A DNA stretch of 63,809 nucleotides, the filler included, from Dicyema japonicum (taxonomy: Eukaryota; Animalia; Dicyemida): the NCBI GenBank assembly GCA_011109175.1. It is 6 parts of 6 records of this genome, joined end to end, with 100 filler letters (N's around TTAATTAATTAA, not from the genome) between each part and the next. Parts side by side here need not be neighbours in the genome. Positions count along the whole stretch, not along the records: positions 1 to 14,002 come from RDEW01000109.1; positions 14,103 to 26,386 come from RDEW01000165.1; positions 26,487 to 54,826 come from RDEW01000080.1; 3 more parts are not named here. One strand, written 5' to 3'. How positions within the stretch are numbered: position 1 is the stretch's first letter; each line of letters starts with the position of its first letter. The translations under genes were made by a program, and so were the position numbers. The notes under the pieces are model-generated. The model saw only the letters and a list, made by a program, of their open reading frames with translations. It had not been told where the DNA came from and ran no database searches. Below, piece by piece: positions 12,290-49,414 of the stretch.

Positions 12290-13432
12290 AAATTTCGACA
12301 CTTTCAGAATTTCTTGAAAATGGGATAATTATGATAACAACTCAAGACAGTGGTAAACATCATCAACTTGATAATTCACTTATCGAATGGATTTCATGAT
12401 GCATGCTATCAATGGTTTTATAACTGAAGGTATCCTCATATTTAAACAATAAGATCAATTATTAACATCTTTAAAATTAGTCACCTTCTTGCTGTAAATA
12501 TGAAATCTTATTCTGATGAGAAATTATTAAACTGCTATTTCCATTTTTTGTGATGAATGTTGTCCATCAAATATTCAAAATATTGCAAAACGATTACCAT
12601 TAAGTAATGATTCTATTACAAGAAGGATAGAATCTGAGGACCTTACCCGTCAGCTAATCAAGTTCATTATTATTAAAAATATTTTTTTAGAACATCGAAA
12701 GATTTATATATTATTCTTTTGCTGTTGATGCGAGTAAAGATATCTCTGATAACGAACAAATAGTCATATGCACAAGAAGATGTCACTTCGATTTTAAATT
12801 TTATGAAGAATTTTATTTTCTTAGTTCATTAAAAGGTTTTACAAAATGAATTGATGTGCTTAACGAATTCCTTGAAAGTATTAATAATAAAGCCAGCGAT
12901 TCATTGAATAATTACTGCCTTTATCAGTCACCATTGTAGAATTTAAAAACGCTCTAAGGTTTATATAAGTTTATTTTAAGAATTTTGATGAAATTTTGAA
13001 ATTAACGAAAAATTTTTGCAGCACCATTTAACATAAATCCTGAGAATGCTTCACAATCACTCCAATTGGAGTTGATAGACCTTCAATCAGATGTGGAATT
13101 TACCTCAGTTCTCCACATTGGAAATTTGATGGAGTTTTATTGTTTTCCAAAGAAAATATCCTAATGTACTTACTAATGCTTATAAACACGATTCAATGTT
13201 TGGATCGACATATTTATGTGAATTAATTTTTGGCAAAATCACATAATAAATATCGAAATAAATTGACTGATAGTCACCAAGTCAGTTTTGCGATCTACTT
13301 GTGCCTCTTTTATTCCGTATCATGACAAGTTAGTTAACAATTAATTAAATTTTTGAATTAATTTTTTGTGGCTTCGAAGAGACGGGTAAACTATCGATTT
13401 GGCCCCGACGTTAAAAAGCTTGAGAAACCCTG
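12290..13432 (+). mobile_element. hAT (Buster/Charlie/GTF2IRD2-like) transposase remnant with right TIR and a 29-nt intron
   Basis: LPLSNDSITRRI, AVDASKDISDNEQ, LQLELIDLQSD, SMFGSTYLCE; terminus TTGAGAAACCCTG; GT-AG intron at 12662-12690. Confidence 0.75.
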
Positions 13433-13444
13433 GTTTGGAGAGTG

Positions 13445-13790
13445 GTTCCTGAAAATGAACGAACAAAAACCGAATTTATTACAATCAAGAAAACATACCA
13501 ATGTGATATGGAGGAGAGTAAAAAAGGTATGGTCTTTACTTGCTGAACTGGAAGATGTCCAACAAAAATAAATGTCGGCAACATAGCAGTGATGAGACTA
13601 AAACCGACATCACTGAGATATGTGATGTTTCAGGACAAGTAGAAATACGACTATGCAATGCTGTCGTCCTACCCATACTACTCTACAACTCGGGAACTCA
13701 AAAACTCGGACATTTGTTAATAACTTAAATCCTTTTACAGAAGACGAGTAAGGACTTTACTAAGGATCACTATGGTAATCAAACCCGACT
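13445..13790 (+). mobile_element. RTE-like non-LTR fragment
   Basis: WRRVKK, IRLCNAVVLPILLYNSGT. Confidence 0.6.
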
Positions 13791-14002
13791 GGAAGGATAC
13801 AACTTTCTTATTGTGAATGTTCATTATAATAATATGCCACATGGCTCACTACCTACGCATGGACAACTGTTAAATTTTTGTGGTTTCCTATCCGTGAACC
13901 TTCAAGATAGGGTTAGGCTAATTTCATTCTATTAATTTATCAAATCAAACTTCACTTTCAGACTTATAAACAGGTCTGATAAATTTATTAAAATAATTTT
14001 AA

Positions 14003-14102
14003 NNNNNNNNNNNNNNNNNNNNNNNNNNNNNNNNNNNNNNNNNNNNTTAATTAATTAANNNNNNNNNNNNNNNNNNNNNNNNNNNNNNNNNNNNNNNNNN
14101 NN
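14003..14102. other. Artificial contig linker N44-TTAATTAATTAA-N44 (also at 26387-26486, 54827-54926, 59136-59235, 61673-61772)
   Basis: Identical 100-nt structure occurs five times; the 12-mer has stops in all six frames. Confidence 0.95.
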
Positions 14103-14974
14103 AAAAACAGAGGTTGTTCCAAAAATAGAGGTTGCTTCAAAAATCGTATAAAAATTTGTTATTATTGTGTACATAACTATACTTTGTTGATTATAAACCT
14201 TAGAATTTAACGGAAAACTAACATTGTTTAAAATAATCCGTGATTTTTTGTCCATAACCACATTTTTTTTCTAAAATCATAAAAATCTTTGAGACAATCT
14301 GGAAACATCTTTAACACGTCTTCCTCAACTTTATTTATGTTTTCAATTGCTGTTCTTATTGTTACATGTTCAGTCTTGATTCCATCATAAAAAAATTTCT
14401 CTGAATCAGGGTCAATTTCATCCAAACACATATTCGATTGCTCTTTCTTAATAATAGTTTCTGACGAAACCTCCTTCCATGCATCAGAAATCAGTAATAT
14501 TACTTGACGCAAATTTATTTTTTTGAAGGACTCAATAAAAATTTCCTGATTGTCAGTGAAACATAAAAAATCTATTAAAGATGTAGAATAATGGTCCTTA
14601 AAAGATTTTATAATTCCACAATCCAGTGGCTGTAGTATAGCAGTTGTATTTTTTGGTAAAAAAGTAATTCTATGTTAGAGAATTCCAGATTATTATGCGG
14701 CCCAGCATTGTCCAATAGCAGAATAATTTTCCGATTTTGTGATACAAAATGTTCATTAATCATGTGAAGCCAACATCTAAAAACATCTTTTGTCATCCAT
14801 GCATTTTTGGATGAAGAATAGACAACATTATGGTTTGATGTTCAAAAACGAGGTCATTTTTTGTAAGGATTTTATTAATTTTCTAATCAAATTTTCGAAG
14901 TGTTCCAAAACCCGAGGGTGTACCAAAACAGAGGTGTTCCACCCCGAGGTCCGTTTCAAAAGAAGGTTAGACTG
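14103..14974 (-). mobile_element. Internally deleted Tigger/pogo element
   Basis: AWMTKDVF...RKIILLLDNAGPH...LQPLDCGII...AWKEVSSETI; terminus TA|CAGTCTAACC on the minus strand. Confidence 0.75.
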
Positions 14975-15849
14975 TATTTTTATAATTTTTAAAGAGCCGA
15001 ACCTAAATTGTGGTGGGTCGCTTGGCTGCGGTTGAGAATTCCTGGTCAGAAATCTAAATATAGAAATTGAGATGGTAATTTAATATAGATATATTAAGGT
15101 AATATATCTTAGTAAATTATATAAATAAACAGAATTTCTTAATTAAATAAAATCATGTTGTGCCGTGCTTGCTTTACTAGCCATGTGATGATGTTGGCAA
15201 ATAATAAAGAGGTTTAGAGTCATTATCGGGTCACAACATAATAGAGTTGTTGTGAAGTACAAGTGACTAACATAATTGTGGCTTATCTGTTTACATTTTA
15301 TAGCCAACAATTTCCTCTTTTGATTTAATTTTAGTAATCTGATGGCTAATTCTCCTTAATTTTTAAAATTAAAGTTTTTAATCTACTATATTTATCAAAT
15401 CCGTCTTCTTAGTAGTTTATTTTAGTTACACAATTTTATTCCATATTATTTATTCAATTCTTAATACTTGAGATTAGTATTTCCCACACTCTCCTGTTTG
15501 ATTCTAGGTTGTTGAGTTCTATTTGAGTTCTATACCCACCTTTGCTGTTTTTATTGGCCTTAGGTAATTGTTTAGGTCTTTGTAGAATTAACATTATTGT
15601 CCTGGTAGTTCCCTTTTTTAAACCGTTTTTTTACCAGGACCTTTTTGATTTTTTATTCTATTTGTCCATGCACGTAAATACATCTACAACTCTTTTATAT
15701 CTTCTTAAATTTTTCTTCGACCACAGCTGTAGCCAAATGGTCAACGGTTTTCTTCGCTGAGTTCAGTGAGTACACATTTCTTCGGCCGTATCCATAAATA
15801 AATTCCGATCTTGAGTAAAGCATAGCACTCCTTCACTTCGAAGAGAATT

Positions 15850-18010
15850 GTTTTCATTTAGAAGCTTCCCGGAAATCTCTGTGTTACGGGCTATCACCGA
15901 TCAAGTAACGCAGACGGACATCAAGTGGGCGAATCAAGTGGTTAATGTCTCTCGAGAAAGATTCAAAAGGATACCACGTGGTGGATGGCCTATGATCACC
16001 CGGGCTTTTAACGAAAAGTTCCTTACGTCAAAGTCTGTGGCGAACTTGAAGCGTCTGACTAAGATATCGGGAACTAAGTCTAACTTTCCAATGGATCAAG
16101 GAAAGAGTCGCACTGCTGAAATCTCTAATTTTAGAGAATGCTCAAATGAATTTTCCTTCCAGATTAAGGAAGTAAAGTCTATTCCTCGAAATATGAGGAA
16201 GCCGACCCCAAAGTCCCATACCAACTACTCAAAAAAGAGATATTGTCTGGAATAAATGGAGTGATTAGCGAATACATAAAGACTACCATTCCTCTCAATT
16301 TAAATGATATCACCGACGTGATCTATGCCGCACAGTTGACATACCAAGCTCTTACAAAATACTCTTCTAAGAATAACAACTGGAAAGGGGACATGGAAGC
16401 AAAACTGAGTAAACTTAAAGCACAGTACGAACAGACTAATACGCTTATTGACCAAATGGGAATTCGAAGTTCGATGAGGCAACGAGGGATACCCTGAGTG
16501 AATATGGATTTCAAAAGTCAAAGAGAGGAGAACTTGGAAGGATATTTGCTTGCATTGGAGATGAAATAAAAATTGTCGAAAAAAACTACGATTCAGTGAA
16601 GCATGAAGAGAATTCCGTAAGCAAAATTGGTCCTTTGAACTGAACCGGCGACGTTTCTACCGGACTTTGAACGTTGGAAAAACGACTGCAAAGCTAATGT
16701 TTAACGAGAGTGAATTCCTTTCGTATTGGGAGAAAATATGGAGTGAACACGAGAGGGATGGTAGTACAGTGGCGATTAGCAAGAGAGTCACCGGGGCAGA
16801 GGACACATTTGCAGACTTTAACAAAGAAGCAATTCTTGAAGTAATTAAACAACTCCCAAACTGGAGAGCTAGTGGATACGACGGGGGTGTACAACTTCTT
16901 TCTGAAAAAATAACCCCAATTCATGATCGCTTGTGTGATGAACTCGCCAAAATAATACATGGAGAGTATGCACCAACTGAGTGGTTATACACCGGAATCA
17001 CACATCTAACCCCGAAAAAAGATATTTTCCAAGTTCCGGAAGACCTGAGACCAATTTCGTGCGTGCCTAACTTATACAAACTCGCTACGAAATATGTTAA
17101 CAGGAAGATGGGAGATTATATTGAAGCATATAACTTGATTGCTGATAATCAGGTGGGAACTCGACGAATGTGCCAGGGTGCTAAGGAGCAGGCAATAATT
17201 AATCAGTGCATTCACAAGCAATTCGGAAATGATTTGTTTTCTACCTGGATTGATGTGAAAAAAGCGTTCGATTCGGTCGATCACGACTTTCTGTATCAGG
17301 TCCTTGAAAATTCTGAACTCCCCCATTGGATTGTAAATTTCGTGAATAACCTTGTTATGAAATGAAGAATTAAGCTAACCCTGAACCAGCACCTAATCGG
17401 AGAGGTCAAAATGGAAAGGGGTGTACTCCAGGGTGATTCCTTGTCACCCCAAATCTTTTGCACTTGTAATGGACCCCCTCAGTAGAATTCTGAACGCAAA
17501 GTACCCCAAAGGTATTATGGATAATCAAGAGCACGGTTTTATTACATATACAACAAACCACCTACTTATTATAAATGACCTAAAAATATTTTCACAAAAA
17601 GAAGACGTAATGATGATTATAATGAATGATGTAAATATTTTCTTCCGAGCCGCCGGGCTGGAAAAAATGTTGAAAAATTCGCAACTATAGTGTGGCTGAT
17701 TTAGGGTTGCAAGAGAAATCGTTTGATGAGATGGAAGAAGTGCTAGAAGATTCAAGAAGCGAAGTACTGAAGGCACTCTTTGGAGAATAAAAAAAGATCG
17801 ACAATCTTTCGAAGACAAAATTAAACTGGTTCAACATACACTAAGCGCAAAAAAACCGTTTTTTCTAAATATCAAAAATTTGTATGTAAAAGCATAAATG
17901 AAAGTGCATTATCCCTCTACAACTACTACACTGGGCTCGTCAATATTGAGCCACCGGGATTTAAACAGATTGACAAAAACGTGCGGAATATCCTTTTACA
18001 GCATCGAACT
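15850..18010 (+). mobile_element. R4/Dong-clade non-LTR retrotransposon, degenerate RT region
   Basis: LRPISCVPNLYK, NQVGTRRMCQGAKEQAIIN, WIDVKKAFDSVDH, GVLQGDSLSP, TNHLLIINDLKIF. Confidence 0.8.
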
Positions 18011-18609
18011 TTGAGAAATCGACACAAGCTTACATTTATTATTATTATTAACCCAAGATCACCGTCCAAAACCTAGAACTAATTAATCAGGTGACCCCGG
18101 CTTCTCTGAGGAGGGTCCTCATCTTTGCCCGGTGCTGCTCCCTAGTCCCGACACAATTTCTATGAGGGCGCGGTGGTGGAGTTTTAGGGCCTGTGNTGAA
18201 GAAAACATTAGTGAGGATGATGGTACAACTCTGCTAACTCAATTAACCAGATATATGCCAATGTAGAGACACAAGATCGATAATTGAAAGCAACTCATTC
18301 GATCAGACAGCATATATGAATCAATTTATTTCGATAATCCTAAACGATATTCAATACATTTTCCTTTTCAATAAATAGTTCTGATATAAGTAATGCATTC
18401 ATATTCAGGACAATTCTAGCGAACAAATACCCATTGATATTAAATATTCGCAATAATTAGCAGCCATTTAATTTAAGAATGATAGTGAAGAAGGAAATAA
18501 TGAGGGAAGGCACGTGAATTGGCGATCGTAAATCGACGCGACCGATAAGTATTTATACTTGATTGCCGATTCGTGTTCGATTTCTCTTCAGTTTTATATT
18601 TGAAATGTT

Positions 18610-19740
18610 CTCTTGTCAAAAAGAAGTCAGGGGTTGATATTCGCTCGGATTTAAAAGCTATGCAAAAATTGAGAAGAGAGGTAGAAAAGGCAAAAAGAAC
18701 ACTTTCCTCTCAACATCAAGCGACCCTGGAAATAGAGGACCTTTTCCAACAAACTGACTTTTCTGAAGTTCTGTCCAGAGCTCGATTTGAGCAGTTGAAC
18801 AATGAACTATTCAAGAAAACTTTAATTCCGGTCCAGACAGTACTCGATGATGCTGGACTTAAAGCCTCGGATGTCGACGAAGTCATTCTTGTTGGCGGAT
18901 CAACCAGAATTCCTCACATTCAAGCATTGGTCAAGAATTTCTTTAATGGAATGGAACCAGCCCGAGGAGTCAATCCAGACGAGGCAGTCGCATTTGGGGC
19001 TGCAATTCAAGCAGGAGTGCTTTCCGGTGAGGGATCAGACATGGTCCTGCTGGATGTGACTCCCCTTTCACTTGGAATTGAAACTATGGGTGGAGTGATG
19101 CACAAACTAATTCAAAAAAATACTGTCATTCCTACAAAACGTCAAAATACGTTTTCTACAGCCGTGGACAATCAGCCGGGTGTTGATATCCTCGTGTTTC
19201 AGGGAGAGAGAGAACAGACCAAGTTTAATAAGAAGATTGGGAATTTCCACCTTTCTGGAATCCCGCCGCCCCTCGAGGATCCCCACAAATCGAGGTCACT
19301 TTTGAAATTGACGTGAATGGGATTCTCACAGTCAGTGCTGTTGACAAGTCCTCAAAGTCTTCTCAGTCTCTTGTCATTGATTCAAATGCTGACCGTCTTT
19401 CTAAAGAGGAGATTGACAAAATGATCAAGGACGAGGTCGAATTCGCCGAGGAAGATCGTCTCTTCAAGGAAAAAACTGAATCGTTCCAAAGATTCGAGGC
19501 TGCTGCCTATCAGCTCAGCGCACAGTTGAAAGATGATTCAAAATTGGGAGGAAAATTGAGTGCTAAGAAAAAAAAGCTTTGGAAACTGAAGCCTCTAGTG
19601 CTTTGGATTGGCTCAACTCCAATAGAAATGCTTCTTCTGATGAAACCAAAAAACGTCTTTCTGAATTCGAGTCTGTGGTTCATCCTATCACTTCCAAATT
19701 TGCATCCGCTCAACCTAATCCGGCTTCTGAAGAACTTTAG
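18610..19740 (+). pseudogene. HSPA5: 5'-truncated, intronless ER Hsp70 (BiP/GRP78) with two frameshifts; ends in SEEL
   Basis: [76 protein letters not shown]; frameshifts at ~19270 and ~19570; corrected end HPITSKF...PASEEL* is a KDEL-like signal. Confidence 0.85.
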
Positions 19741-19930
19741 TTAGTTTTCTTGATTGTTTAAATATGGCTCTTAATTTGTTTTTTCTTATTTTATTCCACT
19801 TTTGATTTAGTTTTGTTACTATTTTCCAGGACTATATTGATGAAAGGACATGAGATAAGTTTTAAAATCAATTTATTTGTCAATTATTGGTTTTATTGAG
19901 TTGCCACAAATCTGTATAATTTCCAAAGTA

Positions 19931-22900
19931 CAGTAAAGTCTCTCTCGAATCCGCCATTTCTCGAATCCGCCAATTATAACTAATAAATTCTTTTATCCGC
20001 CATTGTCTCTAAGAAAATTTCTCGAATCCGCCAAATTCTCGAATTCGCCAGATTTTTGTTAACGAATCCGCCATGTTTCTCAATTTTAAATAATTTTTTA
20101 AATTAATTTTACAGGTAAATAATTAATTTATTAACACGTATTCATTGTTTATTGTTGTCTTCATGAAACGTAACTGTACACGATTAAAAAACAAACAAAA
20201 AATTGCCATTTTAAAGTTCATTGAATCGAATATTGAATTTCTTTCCATAAAAATTTCAGAAATTTTTTCCGAAAAATATAATGTACCTATTTCTCGTAGA
20301 TCTATTGATGATCTGAGAAATAAGAGGGGAAATGTGTTGAATAACTTAAGATCTGACATTTCTCGTAAAGATTTGGTACTTTTGTCGAAGTGGTCGCAGT
20401 TTTTTTAGGCCTTTTTAAGTGGATATCCTTTCAAAATCACGTATTGGAAAATTCTGTTGTGGACTTATGCGACATAAAATTCCGACAGCTCCCAATAAGT
20501 AAGGAGGATGCAGTGCATTTTCTGCAAAATGTGGATATCCTTTCAAAATCACGTATATGTCCGAAGGGACATCAGATGGAATTAGTCTTGGGACCGAAGC
20601 TCATTTGGAAATGCTCAAGAGTTGGTTGTAGAGTCCAATGTTCTATTAAAAAAGGTATAATTTCTCTCAAATAATTCTAGATACCTGGTTAGAGAATTGT
20701 AGATTGCCATTGAGGATGTCATCGCCTACATATACTTATGGAGTTACGATAGGCATACCTTCAAATGGCTTCACCACGAATACAATTGGGGTGAACATAC
20801 ATATGTCGATTGGGCTATGTTTTTACGTGAAGTCTGTGTGGACGCACTTGTTAACAGATCTGACGGCAAAATTGGTATTATTAATGTTTATTTCAGGTGG
20901 TCCTGGTATGATTGTGGAGGTAGACGAGAGTATGTTTTCCAAACGGAAAAACAACTCTGGAAGAGTTTTACCAAAACAGTGGGTCTTCGGTGGTATTTGT
21001 CGAGCCACCAAACAGTGTTTTCTGCAACCAGTCGCGGATAGGAGCAGAGAAACACTGCTCAGTCTAGTAATTCGATATGTCGAGGTGGGAAGCATTATTT
21101 ATAGTGACTGCTGGAAAGGTTAGCATTATTTGATTAACATTTAGGGTATTCAACTGATCAATTGGTTGAAAACGGCTACACACACGAAACCGTTAACCAT
21201 AAGTAAGGAAATATAATATTTTCAGAAAATTATTTGTGGATCCAACGACGGGAGTGCACACCCAGACAGTAGAACGAATGTGGTGAAGTGCAAAATGCAA
21301 GAATAAAGCTCAAAGAGGAGCTGTAAGACATCATCTGGGATCTTATTTCGCAGGTTTTTTTAGTTAGTTATTTTTTCAGAATTTATGTGGCGAAAACAAA
21401 TACAGAACTATAAGGAATCTTTTGCACAAATTGTAAAAGACATAAATTCCTTCTACAGTCCTGGAATTTGGATGCCGCGTACTAAAAATGACTAAATTGG
21501 TTAAATAAATTTTTAAATAATTTTAATAACCATTTAAATTATTGATAGAGGGTTATAAATTAAATAATCTATTTTTCACTAAAAAAATTAATTTTAATTA
21601 TCTTCTAAAAAAACTGCGACCACTTCGACAAAAGTACCGAATATTTAAAGTTTAGTGAAATCGATAATGATAGATTTCTTGGATTAATTCAATGGATGCT
21701 AAAGGAGCCATTTTGAACGATAAATTATTACTGAGAAAGCCAAAATATTTGCTTCGAAACGAGGATTCAATGATTTTAAAGGAAACAAGGGGTGGCTTGT
21801 TAAATTCAAAAAGAGGAATGGTTTGAAGTTACGAAATATGCATGGAGAATCTGCAACTTTAAATTTTGACCCTAATGTGGTATCAAATTTTATTGAATTA
21901 ATCAAAAATAAAATCGATCTCTAGGTGTCAAAATGTTTATAATGCCGACGAAACTGTTTATTTTACAAAATGATGTTTGTAAAACCTTAAATCGGGTTAT
22001 AAAGTATTAAAAGACAGAGTTTCAGTCATGTTATGTACAAATGCGGATGGTACAGATAAACGAGCACCATTATTAATCAGGATGTTTAAAAATCCTAGAT
22101 GTTTTAAAAGTTTTATATTAAAAAATATGTCACATATTCTAATTCAAAAAGCATGGATGGATAGCCGAATTTTTAATCAATTTCTTTTGAAATGGAAAAT
22201 AGAATTGGGGAAGCATAATAGAAAAATTTTGCTTGTTGTAGATAAATGCCCTGCACATAAGTGAATTTTATAACATTTACATTAGGTTTTGATTGAATTA
22301 AACCAAATTGAAATAATATTTTTACCACCGAATACAACGTCGTTTTGCAACCACTGGACCATGGTATAATTAAATCGTACAAATGCAATTTCAATTCTCT
22401 TAATTTTCCAATATTATTCAGAAAATTGAAGCTGGGATAAATCTTTATATTGCATACAAAAAATTAAACTTGAAAAATGCAATATTATTCACACATTATG
22501 CATGGAACAAGATTGATAGTTCCTTAATATTCGAATGCTTCACACACGCAAAATGGATTCAAAACATTGAAAATATAAATAATGAAAACCCAGTTATTAG
22601 AAATTACGGATATATTCTAGACAAAATAAACATAAGTGATCCATCAGAAGAGAGACTTTATATCGAAATTGACTACAATGAAGATGAAGAACTTGATTTG
22701 ATTGATTCGAGAAATTAGAACAAGAAATTGATAGTGATGAGCCACTTGAACAAAGTCAGAAAAGTGAAACTATTAAGCGTGGCTTTGCTAGCCTTAATAA
22801 ATTAAACGAATTTTATAATTAAAAAGAATTCTTAATGTCGAAATCTTGAGTCTATTGAAAGCTTGGATCTTCAATGATCCGAACTAAAAAAAAAACAAAT

Positions 22901-23034
22901 CAAACTTACTGAATTTTTTGCATATAAGTAATTTTTTTGATTTACATTATTAATGGATGTAAAAATCAATAAGTCTCTTGAATCCGCCAGATTTTGCCGA
23001 TCCTCGAAATTGGCGGATTCGAGAGACTTTACTG
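19931..23034 (+). mobile_element. Full-length degenerate Tigger/pogo DNA transposon, interrupted by a Merlin element
   Basis: TA|CAGTAAAGTCTCTC...GAGAGACTTTACTG|TA termini; CENP-B-like GWLVKFKKRNG...HGES; DDE_1 motifs NADET, KILLVVDKCPAH, FLPPNTTS, LQPLD. Confidence 0.9.
20375..21638 (+). mobile_element. Merlin (IS1595/ISXO2-type) DNA transposon; transposase split by five 22-26 nt introns
   Basis: ~33-bp TIR GGTACTTTTGTCGAAGTGGTCGCAGTTTTTTT; imperfect 8-bp TSD AAAGATTT/GAATATTT; spliced motifs GGPGMIVEVDES, WVFGG, IYSDCWKGY, VNH..FVDP.TGVHTQTVE.MW, EFMWR; one frameshift (~20710) and one TGA (~21284). Confidence 0.92.
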
Positions 23035-23242
23035 TATTGAAAATGTTCAGATTCAATCAATTTTATAGTAAAACTAAAAACTATGATCGTGTACATATTT
23101 TTATTTTTGACCATCTTAGTTTTGATTGATTTTAGTTCTAGGAAAATTTTTTTAATTGTTTTAATTTGATTTTTTGTTATCAATAAAGCTAAAAAGATAG
23201 TCGAGTGCCCAAGGGTCAGCTCAACGACGCCGCGTTTTAATA

Positions 23243-24936
23243 CAGTAAAGTCTCTCATATCCATCAACTCTTTTGATAACCGCCACAAAAATATATTTTA
23301 AATGGAAAAATTCTGATATCCGCCATTTCCATATTCTAATAACCGCCACTTTTTATTTGGTTTTCATTGATTTGTTTAATCAATCCGGAAATTTTTACCT
23401 TAATGGAGCGCTATTGGCTTAAATGATAAGTAAGGCCTTCAAGAAAGTCGAAAAAACTACATAATTTAGATCAGCGGTTCTCAACATTTGGGTTGTGGGG
23501 CCAAATCAATATTTAAATTTCCTTACCGGGGCCGCCATAATTTTTAACAATAATTTTGGCGGCGGCCAGCATTCTCCCTCTCTTACGGATCGCTAAGGAG
23601 TTCGCAATTTTTATCGTCATGTTCTTCGAAAATGACTTTGTCTTTTGGTAAATTCCTTACTTTCTGGAAATAATTTATAGAACCTTTACGTAATAAAGTT
23701 ATATACTGTACCTATTAAGGCATTTAAAACGACATAACAACCTCACAGCAGTATGAAGAATCACTTCTCGATATTCAACATCAACTTGTTACCAAAAAAG
23801 ATTTAAAATATCGATGATTGAGTGCTTATGAGCGTATCCAGTTCACGATATTAACAACTTTTTTAGAAACATAATCCATTTTAATGGATTTGACGATAAG
23901 ATTTTCCTGGTGAATTATGCAATGATGCCAAATTAATGGATATAAATTATTTTCGATAGAACCCCTCTAACAAAAACAACTATATGTTGTTCTGTATCGG
24001 TTATATCTTTGGAACAATCAAGATCCAAGGAATAAAAAACAAATTCTTTTGCAGCACTAATAATAATTTACTTTAACAAATTACGATATAAGCTGATTCT
24101 CGATATCATCTGATATTAATTGTATTTTTCTCGTAACAGTATCATTGCTAAGTGTTAATTTTCTAGCAATGTCTTGTTGTATTGTGCTAGGACAACATTC
24201 ATTGGCAAATATCTGAATTGCCTCCTTGAATATTTCCCCATCAGTATACGGCTTCATATGTGCTCCAATCAAATGGCATATTTTCAACGAAGCCATTGTT
24301 GTATCATTGTTGGTTGCTCCACTTTTGAAATATGACGTTTTTTTAATATATTCTGATTTAAGAAAGTTCAGTTTTCTTTTTCTTGACTCGCCTAAAATAC
24401 TATTAATCAATGAGGTTTTCACATAAATAGGAGTCGAATTTGGAAGAGTGCCGCCGATAATGTCGTTCAATGGTATACGTTTTTAATGTATTTAGCGTCG
24501 CATAGCATATAAGGCACTGTGCTTTTCCTTTACATTCAACTACAAAAAATTTTTCTTCCCAGTCTTTTTGAAATACACGATTTTCTTGAGTGATATTTCG
24601 ATTTCGCTTAATACAACCAGACATACGCTTAATACAACCAGACATAAAGATAAAAAATGGCACGCTAAAATAATTTATTTTAAACTTAAAGTTTGATATA
24701 AGAGTAAATAATTAAATTTTAACATTATAAAAAAAATTAACAAAAAAAGTTAGTTGCTCTCCAGGGGCCGCAAAAAACATCCTGGGGCCGCATTTGAGAA
24801 CCGCTGATTTAGATAATTGGATGATTAAAAATAAATCTTGTTTTGAAATTTTTTTATGGATTCTGTTATCCGCCATTTCTAATAACTGCCACATTTTTAG
24901 AAATCCCATTTTTTGCAGATATGAAAGACTTTACTG
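23243..24936. mobile_element. Tigger-family MITE (~350 bp) interrupted by a hAT element
   Basis: TA|CAGTAAAGTCTCTCATATC...GATATGAAAGACTTTACTG|TA; terminal bases and ATCCGCCA internal motifs shared with the Tigger at 19931-23034. Confidence 0.85.
23472..24806 (-). mobile_element. hAT Buster/Charlie-type element, internally deleted, with a 28-nt intron
   Basis: TIR CAGCGGTTCTCAA; perfect 8-bp TSD ATTTAGAT (23464-71 and 24807-14, nnnTAnnn pattern); BED-like finger AQCLIC...ERHY; intron at 24057-24084. Confidence 0.92.
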
Positions 24937-25182
24937 TAATTATATTTCTATTAAATTTTGAATTGTTTGATTTAATGAAAAATTATTTTTATAGAAAATT
25001 TGCGTTTGACAACTTATTTTAACATTGGATTTTTTTAAAAAGAATTTTTCTGGGATCAAAAAAATTTTTAAAAATGAATTTATTTGATTTTATTAGTTTA
25101 TGATTTATTACCTTAAATATAACATCACCGCCAAAAAAGAAAAACAATTTATTGTCATAGTGATTATAAACCAAATTAATAG

Positions 25183-25954
25183 CAATGACAAATCCAACTT
25201 CAGTTACAAAAGAATTACCGTCTACAGAAATGGCGATCCCTTCTATAAACATAAATTCGTTGTCAATCCAAGACAGATCAGGAACATGGATATACTTTTA
25301 AATCATCTTACAGAACGGATTTTGCCTATCTGGGGATGTGTTCGAAAAATAATGACCCCGATCAACGGTCACAGAGTAAAAAAACTTTCTCAAATTGAAA
25401 ATGGCAAAGTTTATGTTGCAGGAAATATGTCTAAGTTTATTAAAATTGAGTTATAACATATGTCATCGTAATTATAGATACCATATTGAAGACCAAAAAT
25501 CCCAGCCCATCAATCCTGTCAGAATTCAAAAAACTACCAAAAGTAAAGTTGATTTATTCATGACCAGATTCCTAAACAATACCAAACCATAAAAAGTCGA
25601 ATCAACGTACCAGAACAATTTCCAATTTTGATTTAGTAAATTAAACATGAAAATGGAAACAGTATCCGGACACCTTCAAAAGTCATTTTACGCGGAAATT
25701 CACAAAAAAGCCTTGAATTGTGTCTTGATGCAATTAATGAAGAAATAAAAATGAGGACCGGGCTGTCAGAAAGTATATTATTTATGTTATTTCAAGAATT
25801 TATTCTTTGTCAGGAGAGATTAATAAATAATGTGGATAAACTAACTTCAAACAGTCATTATGTGGCCGCAGGCTCAGAAAAAAAATTTATAAGTTGTAAC
25901 TACAGAACTGAGAAGACACAAATAAATTTTTCTACATTCATAGCCAAAACGTGA
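25183..25954 (+). pseudogene. DCDC2: Tandem doublecortin-domain gene (DCDC2-like) with micro-introns and several lesions
   Basis: ITVYRNGDPF...WGCVRKIMTPINGHRVKKL...YVAG...FIKIE|Y; linker SRINV; second DCX ENGN...MRTG...HYVAAG; introns 25450-25477, ~25548-25567, 25773-25796; frameshifts in the second domain; 5' end uncertain. Confidence 0.7.
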
Positions 25955-26489
25955 TAAAATATTTATTTATGAGTTGACCTAACTATACTCATTTATTGTA
26001 ATGTTTTAATTAATGCAATGATGCAATTCCTTTATATTATGGATAAAGAATAGATTTATAACATTTATCCGGATTTTAAATATTACCTTTAATGACGTCA
26101 GTTGATTAAACAAATGAGGAATGTGATTAAATTTAAGTAGTTATGGGGTTTTGCAGTCAACAGCGCTAAGGAAATAATATTTTTTCCTTGGAGACGTTTA
26201 TAGATCGAGCTAGTCGCTTTCGAGACATCCATGTGCTGGGAAACGACCCATCGGTTGTTGATCAAAGCAAAAGAAATGGATGAGCTATTCTGCTTGTGGC
26301 AAAAACTAGCTCGACTTTTTTCGCTATCCGCGCTGGGTAGTTTAACGCGTTTACCTATGATTTTTTTCAAGTGGGATGTGGTTATTNNNNNNNNNNNNNN
26401 NNNNNNNNNNNNNNNNNNNNNNNNNNNNNNTTAATTAATTAANNNNNNNNNNNNNNNNNNNNNNNNNNNNNNNNNNNNNNNNNNNNTTT

Positions 26490-27160
26490 TTTTGTATAAT
26501 TTATTGTTTGAGATTTTTTTTGGCCAAGAATATCCAAGGAGTTTTCTTATTTGTTCTGTGTGAAATGAGTCGAGTTGTTCTATATCTTTCTTTGATGTTC
26601 CCTAAGTACCAGCGTTGTACATGAAAACTGGTTAGCTTCCGCAATAGACGGAATAAAAATTTATAGATTTAAGCCAACTCCCCTATCTTCAAATAAAATA
26701 GTCAGACAAACTTAATGATGATTACACTTGGTTAATGGCCAACATCAGTAAACATTTTTCAAGTTGTTTTTCGAAGTAGCCTTTTTCACAGTTCCTATTA
26801 GTTTATCAACATAAGCGAGTAATATAATTTAAAATGAAAATGAGAACTACATTATGGTATGCAGACATTGAGCATGGCATGGGAATTGCTCCCGATGTTT
26901 TGGAAGAGCAATCGGGCCTTTCCGGGCTCTCCATTTAGCAGTACTGCAAGAAACTGAATCAAACTGATGAAATTTACGTGCTAGGGCTAAGCACGCCATA
27001 TGGCTTAAAGAAAATCGGATGGTTCTTCGATTCTAAGGTTCATTGAATGATCGGGTAGAACCAAAATGTAAGGATAATTCGAAAAACATATCTAAAAAAT
27101 AATAAAGATATTGGAAAAAAAGGAAGGCATTATTACGTCAATGAGTGAAAGTCAATGTGT
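26490..27160. repeat. ~670-bp dispersed duplication (second copy ~47270-47976) containing an antisense RTE fragment and a short ORF
   Basis: Colinear similarity, e.g. ATTATGGTATGCAGACATTGAGCA and TAAGGTTCATTGAATGATCGGGTAGAACCAAAATGTAAGG in both copies. Confidence 0.85.
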
Positions 27161-29130: not shown

Positions 29131-29949
29131 AGAAGATAAAATTAATCACAAAATTCATTAAAAATTAAAAAATAGTCATAAATTAGCATATATATTTGAA
29201 AATTAATTTGAATAAGGTCAACGATTAAAATAAATGAAATTATTAAAAATTTAAAAAATGAAAAAAATTAACCTCGATTTACTACAAGCTGAAATTAAAT
29301 TATTAACCCCAGTTTCGCTAACATATAAGAAACTGGCGACCTGATGTTCATTTATTATCTACATAAAAATTTAATTGAATAAATATTATAAAAATTATTT
29401 TTATAATATTAAAATTATAATATTTTTTTTATTGGCGAACAAAACTAAATGATTCGATATAACATCACAATTATGTTAGTAAGTGCTCATTTACCTGAAT
29501 GACGGAAGAGGAGAAGGAACTAAGGAAATCGATAATGATATATAGGTTTGGGGGCTTTACAGGTGCTGGTGATGATCAATCTCGGGAATTGTTAGAGAGA
29601 TCAAATTGGAATCATGAAGTACCATTTTATTTCAAAAACCTAGAAAGCCCTCTCTGAATTTATAAAGGGAAGAGAATCAACCGATGACTTATTTCGTTAT
29701 TCTAGCCTTCTCCACGAGGAAGGCGTTCATAACAACAGCCCAGTTTCTCCTTCCAGTTTGTCTGAAGCGTTAAAAAATAGGACACGTTAACCTTTAAATT
29801 TGTTATTAATTATATGAATTCATTTGTGTACACGTGTCTCTTATGTAATGTTATATAATTAGCCGCGTGGCGCCATGTGGTGCTTCGTGGCTTTCCCTTC
29901 TCACTGAGAAATGCTTGATTTGGATGGGACCTGCACCGAAACCTTTTCC

Positions 29950-38712: not shown

Positions 38713-38714
38713 AA

Positions 38715-43845: not shown

Positions 43846-45539
43846 ACCCTAAGCATCTTACGTGCTTATGGCAACGCGGTAGTGTTAATTATTATTGCTG
43901 CTAGTCACGAAGGAAGCTTTATTTCTACATTCTACCTAACATAGTTTCACTAGTGATCGTGCTATTTTTTTCAAGTGTTGTTAAAACAAAAGTGGACATT
44001 TTTTATTTGGATTTTATTTGAGGTTACCAATTTTTCTAAACTTTTCTATATAAAATAGCAAAAACCATGTTCATGTCTCAAAATAATGCAAGTTTCCAAA
44101 TAAAAAAGGGACAAACCTTAGGTTTAGAAAAGAATTGGGTTGTGAAAAAATAACCCAAGGGATGACTTTATTGTACCATAATGAACCCACTAGTAGGAAC
44201 ATTATATTTGAAGGGGAGACCATGATGCGTACCACATGGAAAAAATGCAAATCATTTTAAAATACCGTTATGACGCATGCCACTAGGAGAAACATGCAAA
44301 TCTTCGTTCCCATAGATTGTCAATCCCGACATTGTAGACGAACGTTGTGCTAATTCATGACATTCAAGTAGGTGATTCGTTATCAACACGTAGAGGTACT
44401 TTGCAGTCGCTTATGAGTTGAATGCGTTCTGGGCCTGTTGGAACTGATTTTGGCTGACGATTGCTTAGAATTCCTACTAACAAAGCGAATTTGGGTTGAT
44501 TGATGGGAAACATATGTTATTCGATTTCCTATGAAGTCTGTTTCATGTTGCTTCCTCGCTGTTATGATTTTTGTCAAGTCTTCCTATAATGTCAAAAAGA
44601 TGTAAAAGGGCAGTCAAGAGACCACGTAAGTGGGTTCTTGGTTTTGACATTTTATATTATTGCTAAAATTTGATTTGGAGATTAATTCGACGATATGAGT
44701 CTCTAAAGGCAATACTTCTAATACCCAATGAAAATGAATATTGTCTACGGTCGGTTAAAAGCGAAACGCTTTATGATTTCTACCAAAAAGTCGATATGTA
44801 CTTTATTCACCTCAGACCGGTAACAAGGCCTCTCTCACTTCTTGGATTAATGTACTACAGACTGCTGAATTTCAACTCCCATGCGAAACAAATCTTCACC
44901 AAAAGCAACCAGAAGAATAATTTTGTACGTACACTTGTTCAGAGGACCGTTTTAAATTTGCGCTGCCTGTAGAGTATACATATGTTTTGAGAAGATATAC
45001 GCTATTGGAAACTTTGGTCGACAGACCAAACTCAATTTACTAAAAAACCTTTCTTATAATCATTCACTCCCTTACTCACGATTGCTACTATTGTCGTCGT
45101 GGGTCTCGATTCCTCCGCGTCTGTAAGGAAGATAGAAACCCTGTTCGCCTACCTACATCAAAGGCAAAAAACTGATTTGTTCAAAAGTACTCTTCTCCAA
45201 TCCGATTCCTCTGCATGAATGAGAAAAGGCTCTTTTATACAGTAGTAGAGACGATGGAAGACGACATGGTTAGAATCGTACAGTTGATTGCGGGAACTGT
45301 GTTCACTATCTGTTTGACATTATTATGTCTTTTTCCCGGTTATCCCGGGGTTCTAAGTAAATAAATAATTCTTATCTTAGTGACATCCTAACTTCTTTTT
45401 TTTTGAGTGCATTTTATTAATTCAATAAAAAAACGCTTCTTATCAAATAATTCAATTAAATTGATTACTTTACTAAAAATATTTTATTAATTTAAAAATG
45501 TTTAAAATATACTTTCGTGTTTTAAAACTCACACATCTG

Positions 45540-46290
45540 CTGGAAAATGCACCGGACAAACTGGGGGAATGGTTCCTCATCGTTAACCGGGCCAAAACGG
45601 AAATCACGGAAATCAAAAGAATGGACAACATCCTTAATGAACGTTGGCGACATGTTAATAAGCTTGGATCCCTACTGGGGGACACAGAAGACATCATCAA
45701 AAGGAAAACACTTGCAGGAGTAGCAATGCGAAAACTCAAAAAGGGATGGCTGAAAGGACTAGATGTCAATCTGCGGATACGCATGTACAATGCATTTGTG
45801 AAACCGATACTGACATACAATGCTGGTACTTGGGCCTGTACAGGTGCGGAATCAATGGCTCTCGATGGGTTCCACAGAAAACAGCTTAGAGTATTATTTG
45901 GCATGCAGTGGCCAGCCAGAATCTCGAATACCGGTATTTACAAAAAATGCAAGAGTAGGCCTCTAAGCCTGGAAATCACTGACGCCCGGTGGAGACTGTT
46001 TGGTCACGTACTACGCATGGATCTTGCTGCCCCGGCTAATGTGGCGATGGAGGACCATTTCATGTTCGAGGGCAAATGCTTCCGTGGCAGACCAAGGATG
46101 ACCCTACCTATCATGTTGCACAAAGACCTCCAAAGGATGAAGAAATGCCTAAAGACGGGAGACGATCTGGACATGCTGAGATCGACTGCGTGTAACCGTG
46201 GAGGATGGAAGAGGCTAACTAATAACATTGTTTCTTGTATTGCACATGCTTTGCTATAACTATTATGGCAAGGCGATAAGTGCTGTAATA
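45540..46290 (+). mobile_element. RTE-clade non-LTR retrotransposon 3' end, ORF open
   Basis: LRIRMYNAFVKPILTYNAGTW, WPARISN, RWRLFGHVLRMD, RGRPRMT; (TAA)n tail. Confidence 0.85.
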
Positions 46291-48085
46291 ATAATAATTA
46301 AAACTATTCTATAATGGCCAGACATCTCAACGTAGATATGCTGGAAAACTAACGGGTTTATGATGCCGTGGTACGTCTTCCATTTCAAATCATCAGCAGT
46401 GCTCGCTGTGGAAGACTCGAGTAGTCTCTGAGTATATAACAATTTAAAAAAATTAGTGATCCTAATTGAGTATTAAACTGAGTTGTCTGGCTGAATTTGA
46501 CAAACACAAATCATTTTATTGACAACTAAAATTTATTTTTACGTTTCTTAATTTAAAAATATTACTAATTGATTTTTTATTTTTTCAATTTAACATTTGT
46601 AAGACTATCGGTAGTGGTATTGAACTGTTGCATTTTAAAGTATCACGGTTCCCCTTACCACTTTGCCATCTTCATCCTGTGCTCATCGAGGGACCCAACC
46701 TCTTACCGAAAGTGTCTGGATTTTTGCCTATCGCAGGAAGTTGACGGGGGACTAATGTCTGAGTATAGGTCTTACATTTTCAGATTGCGCCAAGGAGAAA
46801 CATAGTGGATTCCGTGTTCTTACAGAACCGGAGTAACCCGCAGCCATTCCTTCGTATTGACGGCTACGACAGTTGAGTTACAAGAGTAGAATCTGTTTGA
46901 CTCATTATAAAAGCTTAGTCCTTTCTCGTATGGAGGTAATTTTGTCTAGGAACGACGGCTAAGATTACGTACTTACATAAAGCAAAGGGATCTTAGAATG
47001 TGATTTTTCACATATGTTAGCATATTGTCATGCGGTTCTCCTATTTTGGGGGCACTCGGTGCCAATGGGCATGAAGAAAAACTATTTTCTTTTCCTACTT
47101 TGTCAGATCGCTTCATGGGGTGGCTCATTTTTCTCCTAATTTTCTCGAGATAAATTATGGGTTTAATTCTCACATCGATACTCTTCGTTAATTTACTGAG
47201 AACCACTCTCCAAACACACCAGAAAGATGAATAAAAAGATTATGATAATCGTCTGCCAACGTATTTAGTGTAATTAATTGTTGAGATATTCATTGACCAA
47301 GAATATCCACGAGTTTTCTTATTTGTTCTTCGTGAAATCAGTCGAGTTGTTCAATATTTTTCTTTGATGTTCCCCAAGTACATGCGTTGAACATGATAAC
47401 TGGTCGGCTTCCGTAATAAACAAAATAAAAATTTATAGATTTAAGCAAACTCCTTTATCTTTAAATAAAAGTCAGATAAGGTTATGATGATTAAACTTGG
47501 TTAAGGCCAACATCAGTAAACATATTTCGAGTTGTTTTTCGAAGTAGCCTTTTTCACAGTTCCGATTAGTTTATCAACATAAACAAGTAATTTAAATGAA
47601 AATGAAAACTCCATTATGGTATGCAGACATTGAGCACGGCATGGGAATTACTCCCAATGCTTTGGAAGAGCAATTGGGCTTTTCCGGGATCTCCCCTGAG
47701 CAGTACAGCAAGATACCGAATCAAACTGATAAAATTTACGTTCTAAGGCCAACCACGCCAAATTTCTTAAAGAAGATCGGCTGGTTTCTCAATTCTAAGG
47801 TTCATTGAATGATCGGGTAGAACCAAAATGTAAGGGGATCAATTCGTAGACCTTAAAAAAATTCCGTGTAGAACCAAAATGTAAGGGATAATTCGAAAAA
47901 CTTATATCTAAAAAATAATAAACATATTGGAGAAAAAAGGAAAGCATTATTCACGTCAATGAGGCAAAGTAAATGTGGCGCGCCATCCGCGTTACAAATT
48001 CTATCGTGTTACATTTTGACCTTGAAATTTTATTTTTTTGACACGAATCAACCTTGATATTCAGATGTTGCCGTTTTTATCAAAA

Positions 48086-49414
48086 ATGCTACTTAAAAAT
48101 TTAGTACTAACTATTGAAGAGTACAAAAATATTGTTGCTTATTTGGAAAACAATAAGATTGATGGAAGTTTAACTGGAATGAAGAAGTCCCGATTTCTAA
48201 ATAAGACAAAATGTTTCTTACTAGAAGACTCTAGGCTAATAACCAATGATGGAACAAAAAAAATTGTAATTGCTCAAGATGATTTGGAAACTATGAAGTC
48301 TGAATGTCTGAATTTACATTTGAAAACGCATTATGGAGTAAACAAAATGAAAGAATACTCTGACAACTATTTTTTTACTATTAAGAGATCTATCATCCGA
48401 AAAGTTTGTGCTGAATGTATGGCGTGTGCACAAAGTCAGCCGCTAAAAGCACATATTCCTTTAATAAACATTAAAGCGAAAGCTCCAAGAGAGCGTTATC
48501 AAATGGATATGGTAGATTTGAGTCGCTGGTCTGAAGAAAATCATGGTCTCAAATATATTTTTAACGTAATTGATATTTATTCAAAATTTTGCTTTGCCCG
48601 AGCTACTAATTCGAAAGAAGCATTTCTAATTGCTTCTATTTTAAAAAACATTTTTTATAATTTTGGACCTCCTCAAATATTACAATCAGACAACGGAAAA
48701 GAATTCAAAAATGAAATAGTTACTTCATTATGCCAAGAATGCAACGTTTTACAGAAGTTTAGTCGCCCAAGGCACCCTCAATCACAGGGTCAAGTTGAAA
48801 GGTGTAACCAAACGTTAACGCGTTGGTTACAAAAAAGACTATTTGTAAAAGGAAATCACGAATGGTCTACGAGCCTCGATTCAATTGTCTATAATTATAA
48901 TATAAGTGTTCATTCAGCAACAAAAAAGTCACCGTTTAGCCTATTTCACCGTATTAAAAGGTATAATACATTTATGCGGAATGAAAGTGACTTTAAACTT
49001 TATAATGTTTAGATATTGATAAGGATAATGAGGAAGAAATATCATGTTTGAATAATGAGGATGACTGTGAAATAAAATCAAATGAAGGTATATAGAAAAC
49101 ATTTTTAATTTAGATGTATTATCAGACATAATTAGAGAATGAAAAGAAACAGTATTATCAGAGAATGAAAAGAAAACGAAATTTAAATAATGGATCAATG
49201 GAAATTGGAGATTCGGTCTTAGTACCGAAAGACTTTAGTAACGATCCAAAATATAAAAAAAATGAAATTGAATTCATTTTATGAAGGTTTTTTAAATTTG
49301 GTTACAATAGGACCCTTTACGGTTGATGAAATAATATCGGAAAACAAAGTTAGAATTAAAAATTTTGAACAAGAAAAAGAAGTGCTAAAATCCTTAATTA
49401 GAGTAATTCGTTAA
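48086..49414 (+). mobile_element. Ginger/Gypsy-like DDE integrase gene with three micro-introns
   Basis: HHCC (HLKTHYG...CMAC), QMDMVD, VIDIYSKF, LQSDNGKEF, HPQSQGQVERCNQT; introns 48987-49012, 49088-49113 and 49287-49310 restore ...FYEG-PFTVDE (GPY/F module); small lesions in the C-terminal part. Confidence 0.85.

What the first reader, a model, noticed from the sequence alone, without database searches (positions are those of the whole stretch)
12290..49414. Four unrelated DNA-transposon superfamilies carry host-sized micro-introns
Seen: besides Merlin, two diverged hAT copies have an intron at the same codon (QLI-x, phase 2; 12662-12690, 29 nt, and 24057-24084, 28 nt). The Ginger-like integrase has three (26, 26 and 24 nt), and the Tigger has a probable one at 22261-22285 (25 nt, after CPAH). 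The non-LTR elements show none, as expected for RNA-mediated copying. Inference: a genome-wide intron-length constraint, or an intron-creating process, acts even on mobile DNA. It could limit horizontal transfer or give the host a splicing-level control on transposition.
Basis: partly seen in the sequence, partly recalled or inferred. Interest (0 to 1): 0.75.

Follow-up and report, generated by a model that had tools for sequence, protein, structure and literature searches.

The report
Parasite transposons carry host-sized tiny introns
Four kinds of cut-and-paste jumping genes in DNA that likely comes from a dicyemid (a tiny kidney parasite of octopuses) are interrupted by thirteen 22-31-base segments, several of which are missing from assembled sequencing contigs, so they are likely ordinary introns of the host's known tiny size, which would make these jumping genes hard to express in most other animals.

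Summary
Largely confirmed. All six named segments are GT..AG, AT-rich and at the stated coordinates. With five Merlin introns and two further hAT introns the window holds 13 (22-31 nt, median 26). Ginger introns 1-2 and Merlin intron 1 are absent from contigs of runs X6/X7 (run type not on record) but present in X1/X5. A blind spliced aligner recovers the Merlin and second-hAT introns above controls; the first-hAT and Tigger introns are weaker. Non-LTR copies gave no such call in 6.4 kb. The host is probably a dicyemid, whose introns are known to be about 27 nt, so the size match is expected. Merlins from another assembly carry equally uniform 48-59-nt introns, two at the same positions. The shared hAT position is one inherited event, and the introns share no sequence (no introner). 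What stays notable is the density: five introns in a Merlin whose relatives mostly have none, which points to intron gain in long-resident transposons. The horizontal-transfer barrier and host-control ideas are untested. The scan noted this before on other, probably dicyemid, DNA (e1-10334357, e1-10356362). Interest 0.4.

The parts
12290..13432 (+). hAT1: decayed, 5'-truncated and internally deleted hAT transposase copy; right TIR-like end at 13420-13432
   Evidence: same family as 'Octopus sinensis' models XP_029657494 and relatives
12662..12690 (+). hAT1 intron, 29 nt, phase 2 after QLI; weaker support (needs a 1-nt frameshift downstream)
   Evidence: family models carry a 10-residue read-through insert here
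14230..14860 (-). Second Tigger/pogo family fragment with no intron at the site matching 22261 (internal control)
19931..23034 (+). Tigger/pogo-like (Tc1/mariner) element with TIRs and TA flanks, interrupted by Merlin
   Evidence: PF03184; ends; contigs that skip the Merlin
20375..21638 (+). Merlin element (TIRs beginning GG) inserted in the Tigger; about 300-residue transposase after splicing, with one frameshift and one stop
20655..20680 (+). Merlin intron 1, 26 nt, phase 1
   Evidence: 18 of 21 homologs; X6 record 30 is 25 letters short with 27 gaps
20875..20896 (+). Merlin intron 2, 22 nt, phase 1; same position as 48- and 54-nt introns in L035 and L041
   Evidence: 20 of 21; X6 record 30 stops aligning at its donor
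21119..21144 (+). Merlin intron 3, 26 nt, phase 1
   Evidence: 21 of 21
21203..21225 (+). Merlin intron 4, 23 nt, phase 2; same position as 57- and 53-nt introns in L030 and L041
   Evidence: 20 of 21
21354..21379 (+). Merlin intron 5, 26 nt, phase 1
   Evidence: 17 of 21
22261..22285 (+). Tigger intron, 25 nt, after CPAH-K; probable
   Evidence: extra 25-27 nt against the second Tigger; other copies have one more G before the donor, which makes it phase 0 and in frame (X1 7 contigs, X5 2, X6 1)
23472..24806 (-). hAT2: internally deleted hAT element with TIRs and a perfect 8-bp target duplication, inserted in a Tigger-like non-autonomous element (23243-24936)
   Evidence: (PF18658)
   Evidence: 20 of 37 homologs
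24057..24084 (-). hAT2 intron b, 28 nt, phase 2 after QLI
   Evidence: 31 of 37 homologs
   Evidence: 16 of 37 homologs; 3 of 4 hAT1-family models end a few residues past this site
48062..49414 (+). Ginger-like integrase gene (integrase core, weak H2C2); termini not found
48987..49012 (+). Ginger-like intron 1, 26 nt, phase 1
   Evidence: X6 records 20 and 22 and X7 record 25 lack 26 nt; X1 records 5 and 7 and X5 record 16 span it with 0 gaps
49088..49113 (+). Ginger-like intron 2, 26 nt, phase 1
   Evidence: three joints after 49087 with a skipped part starting GT; X1 loose ends show the acceptor followed by the letters that X7 joins to
49287..49310 (+). Ginger-like intron 3, 24 nt, phase 1, in frame and stop-free
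   Evidence: 8 of 22 homologs; contigs of a diverged copy in X6 and X7 read from the donor straight into G-P-F
25773..25796 (+). Host-gene reference intron, 24 nt, in a doublecortin-domain gene
   Evidence: read by eye; X6 record 31 is 24 letters short with 24 gaps over 25701-26000

Best explanation
These segments are likely ordinary spliceosomal (GT-AG) introns in the transposase genes of DNA transposons that have likely lived for a long time in a dicyemid genome, and their 22-31-nt length is likely set by the host's splicing machinery. Shown: the segments, their GT..AG ends, their position as insertions against homologs, and the loss of three of them from run contigs. Inferred: (1) cut-and-paste elements copy as DNA, so an intron once gained is kept, whereas non-LTR elements copy through spliced RNA and lose it; (2) an intron outside the host's size class would splice poorly and stop the family from making transposase, so lengths converge on the host mode; (3) most positions were gained one at a time inside resident lineages, often after an exonic AG, from small AT-rich insertions, and were then passed to daughter families; a minority (Merlin introns 2 and 4) may be older positions that shrank. 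No special regulation is needed.
For: Contigs of X6/X7 lack exactly Ginger intron 1 (3 contigs) and join at the donor of intron 2, while X1/X5 retain intron 1; X6 likewise lacks 26 nt in Merlin and 24 nt in a host gene. Blind aligner results. 12 of 13 lengths are not multiples of three. Host: BiP 98% identical to an 'Octopus sinensis' record, next hits 69% or less, limpet 68%; D. japonicum was collected from O. sinensis (PMC6736024, passages); dicyemid median intron 27 bp (PMC6543705). TE introns (median 26, n=13) vs five host introns read by eye (median 24), p=0.11. 66 of 80 Merlin loci elsewhere have no supported intron; the other 14 carry 16 introns of 41-59 nt. Exon ends in AG before 6 of 13 introns against a 5.4% background (p=3e-5). 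The hAT QLI insert occurs in three diverged families with unrelated sequence; 63 of 65 hAT proteins with the motif lack it.
Against: X6/X7 are not on record as RNA, and two gap places are inferred from counts. X6 also holds intron-retaining pieces of Ginger intron 1 (record 21; place 48998), and its Tigger contig appears to retain that intron. hAT1, Tigger and Ginger as a whole do not beat the controls by homology. NCBI models of the hAT1 family encode the segment in frame, and Ginger intron 3 is in frame and stop-free. Two of five Merlin positions exist in another organism's Merlins, which fits inheritance as well as gain. The 80 loci are the best-scoring 80 of 140, which favours intronless ones. 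No named Dicyema sequence was matched.
Confidence: 0.7

Rival explanations
1. The introns are real but mostly inherited: ancestral elements carried normal-sized introns at these positions, which shrank with the rest of the dicyemid genome, and relatives elsewhere lost them.
For: Merlin positions 126 (phase 1) and 219 (phase 2) are matched exactly by 48-57-nt introns in L030, L035 and L041; L041 has both. By my estimate two matches among 5 x 8 positions are unlikely if any base can take an intron (about 0.05 expected). Intron loss prevails in CACTA transposases (PMC4158355, abstract and section 16). Ginger1 elements have 0-4 introns (PMC2836005, passages).
Against: The other three Merlin positions had no supported match in 64-77 spanning loci. 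A clade of the window Merlin with L016/L030/L035/L041 was rejected (p-AU 0.021, quick tree, long branch). Introns in other Merlins fall at 8 scattered positions, which suggests repeated gain.
Confidence: 0.17
2. A genome-wide intron-creating process (an introner, or a high rate of intronisation) is active now and hits any DNA, transposons included.
For: Merlin intron density 5.8 per kb of coding sequence, like the host average (6.2 introns per 1,155-bp coding sequence in D. japonicum, PMC6736024 Table 1). AG before the donor is enriched.
Against: No sequence likeness among the 13 introns (86 of 200 shuffles reach the best pair). hAT positions are shared across diverged families. No contig of X1 or X5 listed shows a clean loss of a Ginger intron (tables were cut). 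Long intron-free stretches exist in the second Tigger, the Mutator-like piece, the first 920 nt of the Ginger gene and BiP.
Confidence: 0.07
3. The introns are kept because the host uses them as a switch: retention in some cells or stages silences transposase, as with the P element third intron.
For: Spliced and retained forms both occur in X6; 12 of 13 introns shift the frame if retained; precedent in PMC7776569 (passages).
Against: Contigs give no levels, strands or stages; retention may come from dead copies, antisense read-through or DNA. Several introns of the same elements are spliced. No regulatory element was found or tested.
Confidence: 0.04
4. The segments are not introns: they are decay insertions in dead copies, or DNA pieces excised from somatic DNA.
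For: All window copies are decayed. Run types are not on record. One contig of X5 ('DNA?') has 25 gaps within 25726-26118, place unknown.
Against: Exact GT..AG ends at all 13; the same segments retained in many DNA contigs; exact removal in two runs and in a host gene; shared positions with unrelated sequence across hAT families.
Confidence: 0.02

Closest known systems
Dicyemid ultra-short spliceosomal introns (PMC6543705 passages; PMC6736024 passages; PMC13644364 parts 1-2 of 3)
   Same: GT..AG, about 22-31 nt, AT-rich, weak splice signals; median 27 bp in Dicyema sp.; about 5-6 introns per gene
   Different: Those papers treat host genes; the term 'transpos' had 0 occurrences in PMC6543705 and PMC6736024 and one unrelated mention in PMC13644364. 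Supplements were not read.
Intron-bearing DNA transposons: Ginger1 (0-4 introns, PMC2836005 passages), CACTA (1-6 exons) and plant mariner-like intron gain (PMC4158355 abstract and section 16), P element (PMC7776569 passages)
   Same: Transposase genes interrupted by spliceosomal introns that are gained, lost and inherited along element lineages
   Different: Here the introns are 22-31 nt, occur in four superfamilies side by side, and reach five per gene in a Merlin whose relatives mostly have none
Paramecium Tc1/mariner elements Sardine, Thon, Anchois (PMC3464196, supporting-information legend only)
   Same: DNA transposons with predicted introns in another host with tiny introns
   Different: Intron lengths were not given in the passage seen; a ciliate; one superfamily
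Merlin loci L002-L065 from metagenomes
   Same: Uniform short introns across unrelated Merlin clades within one assembly (14 introns, 48-59 nt, 12 of its 20 loci); two positions identical to the window's
   Different: About twice as long, at most two per element; that host's own intron size was not measured
Introners (PMC12130899, search listing only)
   Same: A link between transposons and new introns
   Different: Introners are the introns and form sequence families; here the introns sit inside transposons and share no sequence

Membership tests
U2-type spliceosomal intron | GT donor and AG acceptor | tested here: met
   13 of 13
U2-type spliceosomal intron | Removal restores frame and homology | tested here: met
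   Above controls for Merlin (5) and hAT2 (3); not above controls for hAT1, Tigger and the Ginger set
U2-type spliceosomal intron | Absent from mature transcripts, present in DNA | tested here: inconclusive
   Absent from X6/X7 contigs and present in X1/X5 for Ginger 1, 2 and Merlin 1, but X6/X7 are not on record as RNA; hAT introns not seen either way; Tigger appears retained
U2-type spliceosomal intron | Branch-point A and lariat | not testable with these tools
   A is commoner at -16/-17 (9 and 8 of 13), too few to judge
Merlin (IS1016-related) transposon | IS1595-type DDE transposase of about 300 residues | tested here: met
   PF12762 at 25.8 bits on one unspliced piece, just under the cut-off of 27; 47-53% identity to the top Merlin homologs after splicing
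Merlin (IS1016-related) transposon | TIRs starting GG and an 8-9-bp target duplication (feature recalled) | tested here: inconclusive
   TIRs met; left copy of the duplication is degraded; empty site seen in contigs
hAT (Buster/SPIN-like; label recalled) | Short TIRs and 8-bp target duplication | tested here: met
   hAT2: TIRs and a perfect 8-bp duplication
hAT (Buster/SPIN-like; label recalled) | Zinc finger plus DDE transposase of about 600 residues | tested here: inconclusive
   PF18658; aligns to 600-residue homologs over residues 1-370 (hAT2) and 94-240 plus 480-590 (hAT1); both copies are deleted
Tc1/mariner, pogo/Tigger group | DDE_1 transposase, TIRs, TA target duplication | tested here: met
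   PF03184; ends
Ginger (Bao et al. 2010) | Gypsy-like integrase with H2C2 finger and DDE core, no RT/gag | tested here: met
   PF00665 strong, PF17921 weak; no RT or gag family in flanking ORFs scanned
Ginger (Bao et al. 2010) | TIRs of 40-270 bp starting TGT, 4-bp target duplication | tested here: not met
   No TIR found; the copy may be truncated, so it is called 'Ginger-like' only
Ginger1 | YPYY motif and C-terminal OTU or Ulp1 domain | tested here: not met
   Neither is seen in the translation
Introner | Introns form a sequence family | tested here: not met
   Pairwise likeness equals shuffles
Dicyemida (host) | Sequence match to a named Dicyema gene | not tested
   Only indirect: BiP and hAT match 'Octopus sinensis' records and intron size fits

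The most novel reading that the evidence does not exclude
Dicyemid transposons have gained micro-introns de novo at a rate that brings them to host-like intron density, because 25-nt AT-rich insertions with GT..AG ends are enough to be spliced in this genome. The introns then act as a one-way lock: intronless elements can enter dicyemids, but resident ones cannot be expressed in the octopus host or other animals, whose spliceosomes do not remove introns this short. Dicyemids would be a sink for horizontal transposon transfer and a dated record of how new introns arise.
Probability: 0.3. Interest if true: 0.65.

Novelty: new variant of a known kind. Interest (0 to 1): 0.4.

Why it matters
How new spliceosomal introns arise outside introner bursts is an open question. 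Multi-copy transposon families with intronless relatives give dated before-and-after pairs, and a genome where 25 nt suffices should make gain easier to catch. The data also give a testable prediction for horizontal transfer (export blocked, import open) in a parasite that lives inside its host's kidney. Practically, gene and repeat annotation with a minimum intron of 30 nt or more will mis-read these elements, as public 'Octopus sinensis' models appear to. The size match itself is expected and is not surprising.

Tried and rejected
No whole genome is held, so family consensus sequences could not be built. No RNA holder listed among the 11 runs found. hAT1 was not covered by either lay, and no listed contig showed hAT2's introns spliced or retained in X6 (tables were cut). 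X11 gave only short, diverged pieces. Tigger homologs: none confirmed in metagenomes (150 pattern matches, 0 relatives) and none among solved structures, so the Tigger intron rests on the second Tigger copy and on other copies' extra G. Merlin in genome contigs: 22 pattern matches, 0 relatives. Ginger alignment in viral contigs: 8 distant loci, 25-34% identity, not analysed further. TIR searches for the Ginger-like element failed. The Merlin tree is unstable: in a 99-row quick tree the window copy sat in a 21-row clade whose five DNA loci are intronless; in a 39-row tree it was unresolved; loci with under 170 aligned residues were left out of the first tree. Two calls by a single query only (L037 341 nt, L079 220 nt) and L057, L077 were dropped from the intron count because fewer than 2 of 3 queries backed them. 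Pfam scans of 236 further ORFs found no additional DNA-transposon family. Contig depth was not used as copy number or expression. Cross-copy alignment cannot see an intron shared by both non-LTR copies. Literature: searches listed no paper on introns of dicyemid transposons; PMC9942856 and PMC5405496 had no passage on transposon intron size; PMC10125929 did not mention contamination of the octopus assembly. Ogino et al. 2010 and Feschotte 2004 were not read; supplements of the dicyemid papers were not read and may list repeat families.


Full report
Setting. The window is six short scaffolds joined by N-TTAATTAATTAA-N spacers at 14047, 26431, 54871, 59180 and 61717, so hAT1, the Tigger/Merlin/hAT2 cluster and the Ginger-like gene lie on three different scaffolds. 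No whole genome is held. The BiP fragment at 18621-19265 is 98% identical to XP_029654498, filed under Octopus sinensis, while every other listed hit is 69% or less, including limpet BiP at 68%. The hAT1 family likewise matches 'O. sinensis' models. D. japonicum was collected from O. sinensis kidney (PMC6736024, passages), and dicyemids are one of two animal groups with introns under 30 nt (PMC13644364, parts 1-2 of 3). I infer that the DNA is dicyemid. No named Dicyema sequence was matched, so this remains an inference.

The observation. All six named segments are GT..AG and AT-rich at the stated coordinates. That gives 13 introns of 22-31 nt, median 26; 12 of 13 are not multiples of three. 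Five host introns read by eye in the doublecortin and CID genes are 22-28 nt (p=0.11 against the transposon set). Dicyema sp. has a median of 27 bp, with about two thirds under 30 bp (PMC6543705, passages).

Chance test. I wrote a protein-to-DNA spliced aligner with no length preference (15-150 nt allowed) and ran it with GT..AG and with seven wrong dinucleotide pairs. Merlin: the five introns were found by 18, 20, 21, 20 and 17 of 21 homologs; 96 of 99 calls were 20-30 nt; mean gain 73.5 against at most 32.0. hAT2: three introns in 20, 31 and 16 of 37 homologs; gain 24.2 against at most 13.6. Three cases did not beat the controls: the Ginger set (20.8 vs 21.6, because introns 1-2 lie in a variable linker; intron 3 was picked by 8 of 22), hAT1 (2.3 vs 2.9) and Tigger (139 vs 143 with the second Tigger copy as probe). 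For hAT1, of 65 hAT proteins with the flanking motifs, 63 have a spacer of 22-26 residues and only two, both 'O. sinensis' models, have 33-34, with unrelated inserts at the QLI site. For Tigger, other copies have one more G before the donor (X1 7 contigs, X5 2, X6 1), which makes the 25-nt segment a phase-0 intron whose removal restores the frame.

Sequencing runs. Eleven runs were listed, none on record as RNA. On the Ginger-like gene, X6 records 20 and 22 and X7 record 25 each span intron 1 with exactly 26 gaps, while X1 records 5 and 7 and X5 record 16 span it with none. All three X6/X7 contigs then break at 49087 with a skipped part starting GT, and X1 loose ends show the acceptor directly before the letters that X7 joins to. 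Contigs of a diverged copy in both runs read from the intron 3 donor straight into G-P-F. On Merlin, X6 record 30 has 27 gaps over 20445-20875, which equals intron 1 plus the 1-nt insertion seen in X1, X5 and X6, and stops aligning at the intron 2 donor; X6 record 31 has 24 gaps over the host doublecortin intron. So X6 and X7 behave as spliced cDNA. Against: X6 also holds pieces that retain Ginger intron 1, its Tigger contig appears to retain that intron, and one X5 contig has 25 gaps of unknown place in the doublecortin region. The hAT introns were not seen spliced or retained in X6.

Controls within the window. Non-LTR copies aligned to each other over 6,398 bases gave no GT..AG call of 20-31 nt, and AT-rich GT..AG segments were 4 sense against 10 antisense in 9,874 nt. 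This supports 'none', with the limit that an intron shared by both copies would be invisible. Not all DNA-transposon pieces have introns: the second Tigger family lacks one at the matching site, and the Mutator-like piece at 2803-3260 reads without one.

Other genomes. Of 80 Merlin loci from metagenomes (the best 80 of 140), 66 have no supported intron and 14 carry 16 introns, all 41-59 nt. Twelve of the 20 loci from one assembly carry 14 introns of 48-59 nt at six positions across different Merlin clades. A uniform intron size in transposons is therefore not special to this genome. Two of the window's five positions (residue 126 phase 1, residue 219 phase 2) are matched exactly in L030, L035 and L041; the other three had no supported match in 64-77 spanning loci. 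The window Merlin has a long branch and an unstable place; grouping it with those loci was rejected at p-AU 0.021. Ancient inheritance and parallel gain at favoured sites both remain open for those two. The two hAT families share the QLI position and, judging by where the hAT1-family models end, also hAT2's third position, so the shared codon is one inherited event, not two gains. The 13 introns share no sequence beyond shuffles, and 6 of 13 follow an exonic AG (background 5.4%), as do 9 of 16 in the other Merlins.

How it most likely works. Transposase mRNA is made and spliced by the host (established knowledge). Cut-and-paste elements keep any intron they gain; non-LTR elements lose it by copying through spliced RNA (established knowledge). 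In a genome whose splice signals are reduced to little more than GT and AG (PMC13644364), a short AT-rich insertion after an AG can likely be spliced at once, and lengths outside the host class would likely be purged because the family needs its transposase (inference). Long residence would then bring families toward host density: Merlin has 5.8 introns per kb against about 5.4 for D. japonicum genes (6.2 introns, 1,155 bp; PMC6736024 Table 1). I give this 0.7, mostly-inherited-and-shrunk 0.17, an ongoing intron-making process 0.07, host control 0.04 and not introns 0.02.

Comparison and verdict. Introns in DNA transposons are known (Ginger1, PMC2836005; CACTA and plant mariners, PMC4158355; P element, PMC7776569; predicted introns in Paramecium Tc1/mariners, PMC3464196; passages in each case), and so are dicyemid micro-introns. 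My searches listed no paper joining the two; supplements were not read. This scan recorded the same thing twice on other, probably dicyemid, DNA; those notes are not independent support. The Merlin, hAT and Tigger labels hold; the integrase is only Ginger-like, since no TIRs were found. The residual interest is intron gain in resident transposons and a possible one-way barrier to horizontal transfer, both untested. Novelty: new variant of a known kind. Interest 0.4.

Noticed in passing
P0153, P0273, P0423-P0425, P0286 (XP_029654498, XP_029657494, XP_029655163 and others): Public models filed under Octopus sinensis look like dicyemid genes; the hAT ones read through a 27-30-nt segment as protein and end inside the next intron, and one fuses a hAT piece to squalene monooxygenase.
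   Followed up: partly
L002, L004, L023, L026, L030, L035, L036, L040, L041, L055, L062, L065: One metagenome assembly holds many Merlin families with 48-59-nt introns at six positions; seven loci share position 170. That host's own intron size was not measured.
   Followed up: partly
window 19931-24936: Nested insertions: Merlin inside a Tigger, and hAT2 inside a Tigger-like non-autonomous element with the same TIR type; contigs without the Merlin exist.
   Followed up: yes
window 18620-19744 (+): BiP/HSP70 fragment without its N-terminus, with a frameshift near 19290 and no intron over about 1.1 kb; X6 holds a 93%-alike contig that continues upstream. Probably a partial or dead copy.
   Followed up: partly
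window 25100-25954 (+) and 59700-60940 (-): Host genes: a two-domain doublecortin gene and a CID-domain gene, each with 22-28-nt introns read by eye.
   Followed up: partly
window 2803-4080 (+): Mutator-like fragment with a FLYWCH finger, duplicated on both sides of an N gap (2834-3261 and 3391-3818, 99% alike), probably an assembly artefact; no intron seen in the part present.
   Followed up: partly
window 26490-27159 and 47264-47977: A 700-bp repeat, 81% alike, the second copy ending just upstream of the Ginger-like gene; no protein family found in it.
   Followed up: partly
window 1-1283: Tandem repeat with a unit of about 79 nt, copies about 78% alike.
   Followed up: no
window 29499-29654 (+): Weak UBA-like domain match (PF14555, E 1.8e-4), possibly an exon of an unannotated host gene.
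   Followed up: no
window 49114-49148 (+): The window's Ginger-like copy differs from other copies just after intron 2 (other letters in X1, X6, X7 contigs) and has one extra A near 49255; both break its frame.
   Followed up: yes
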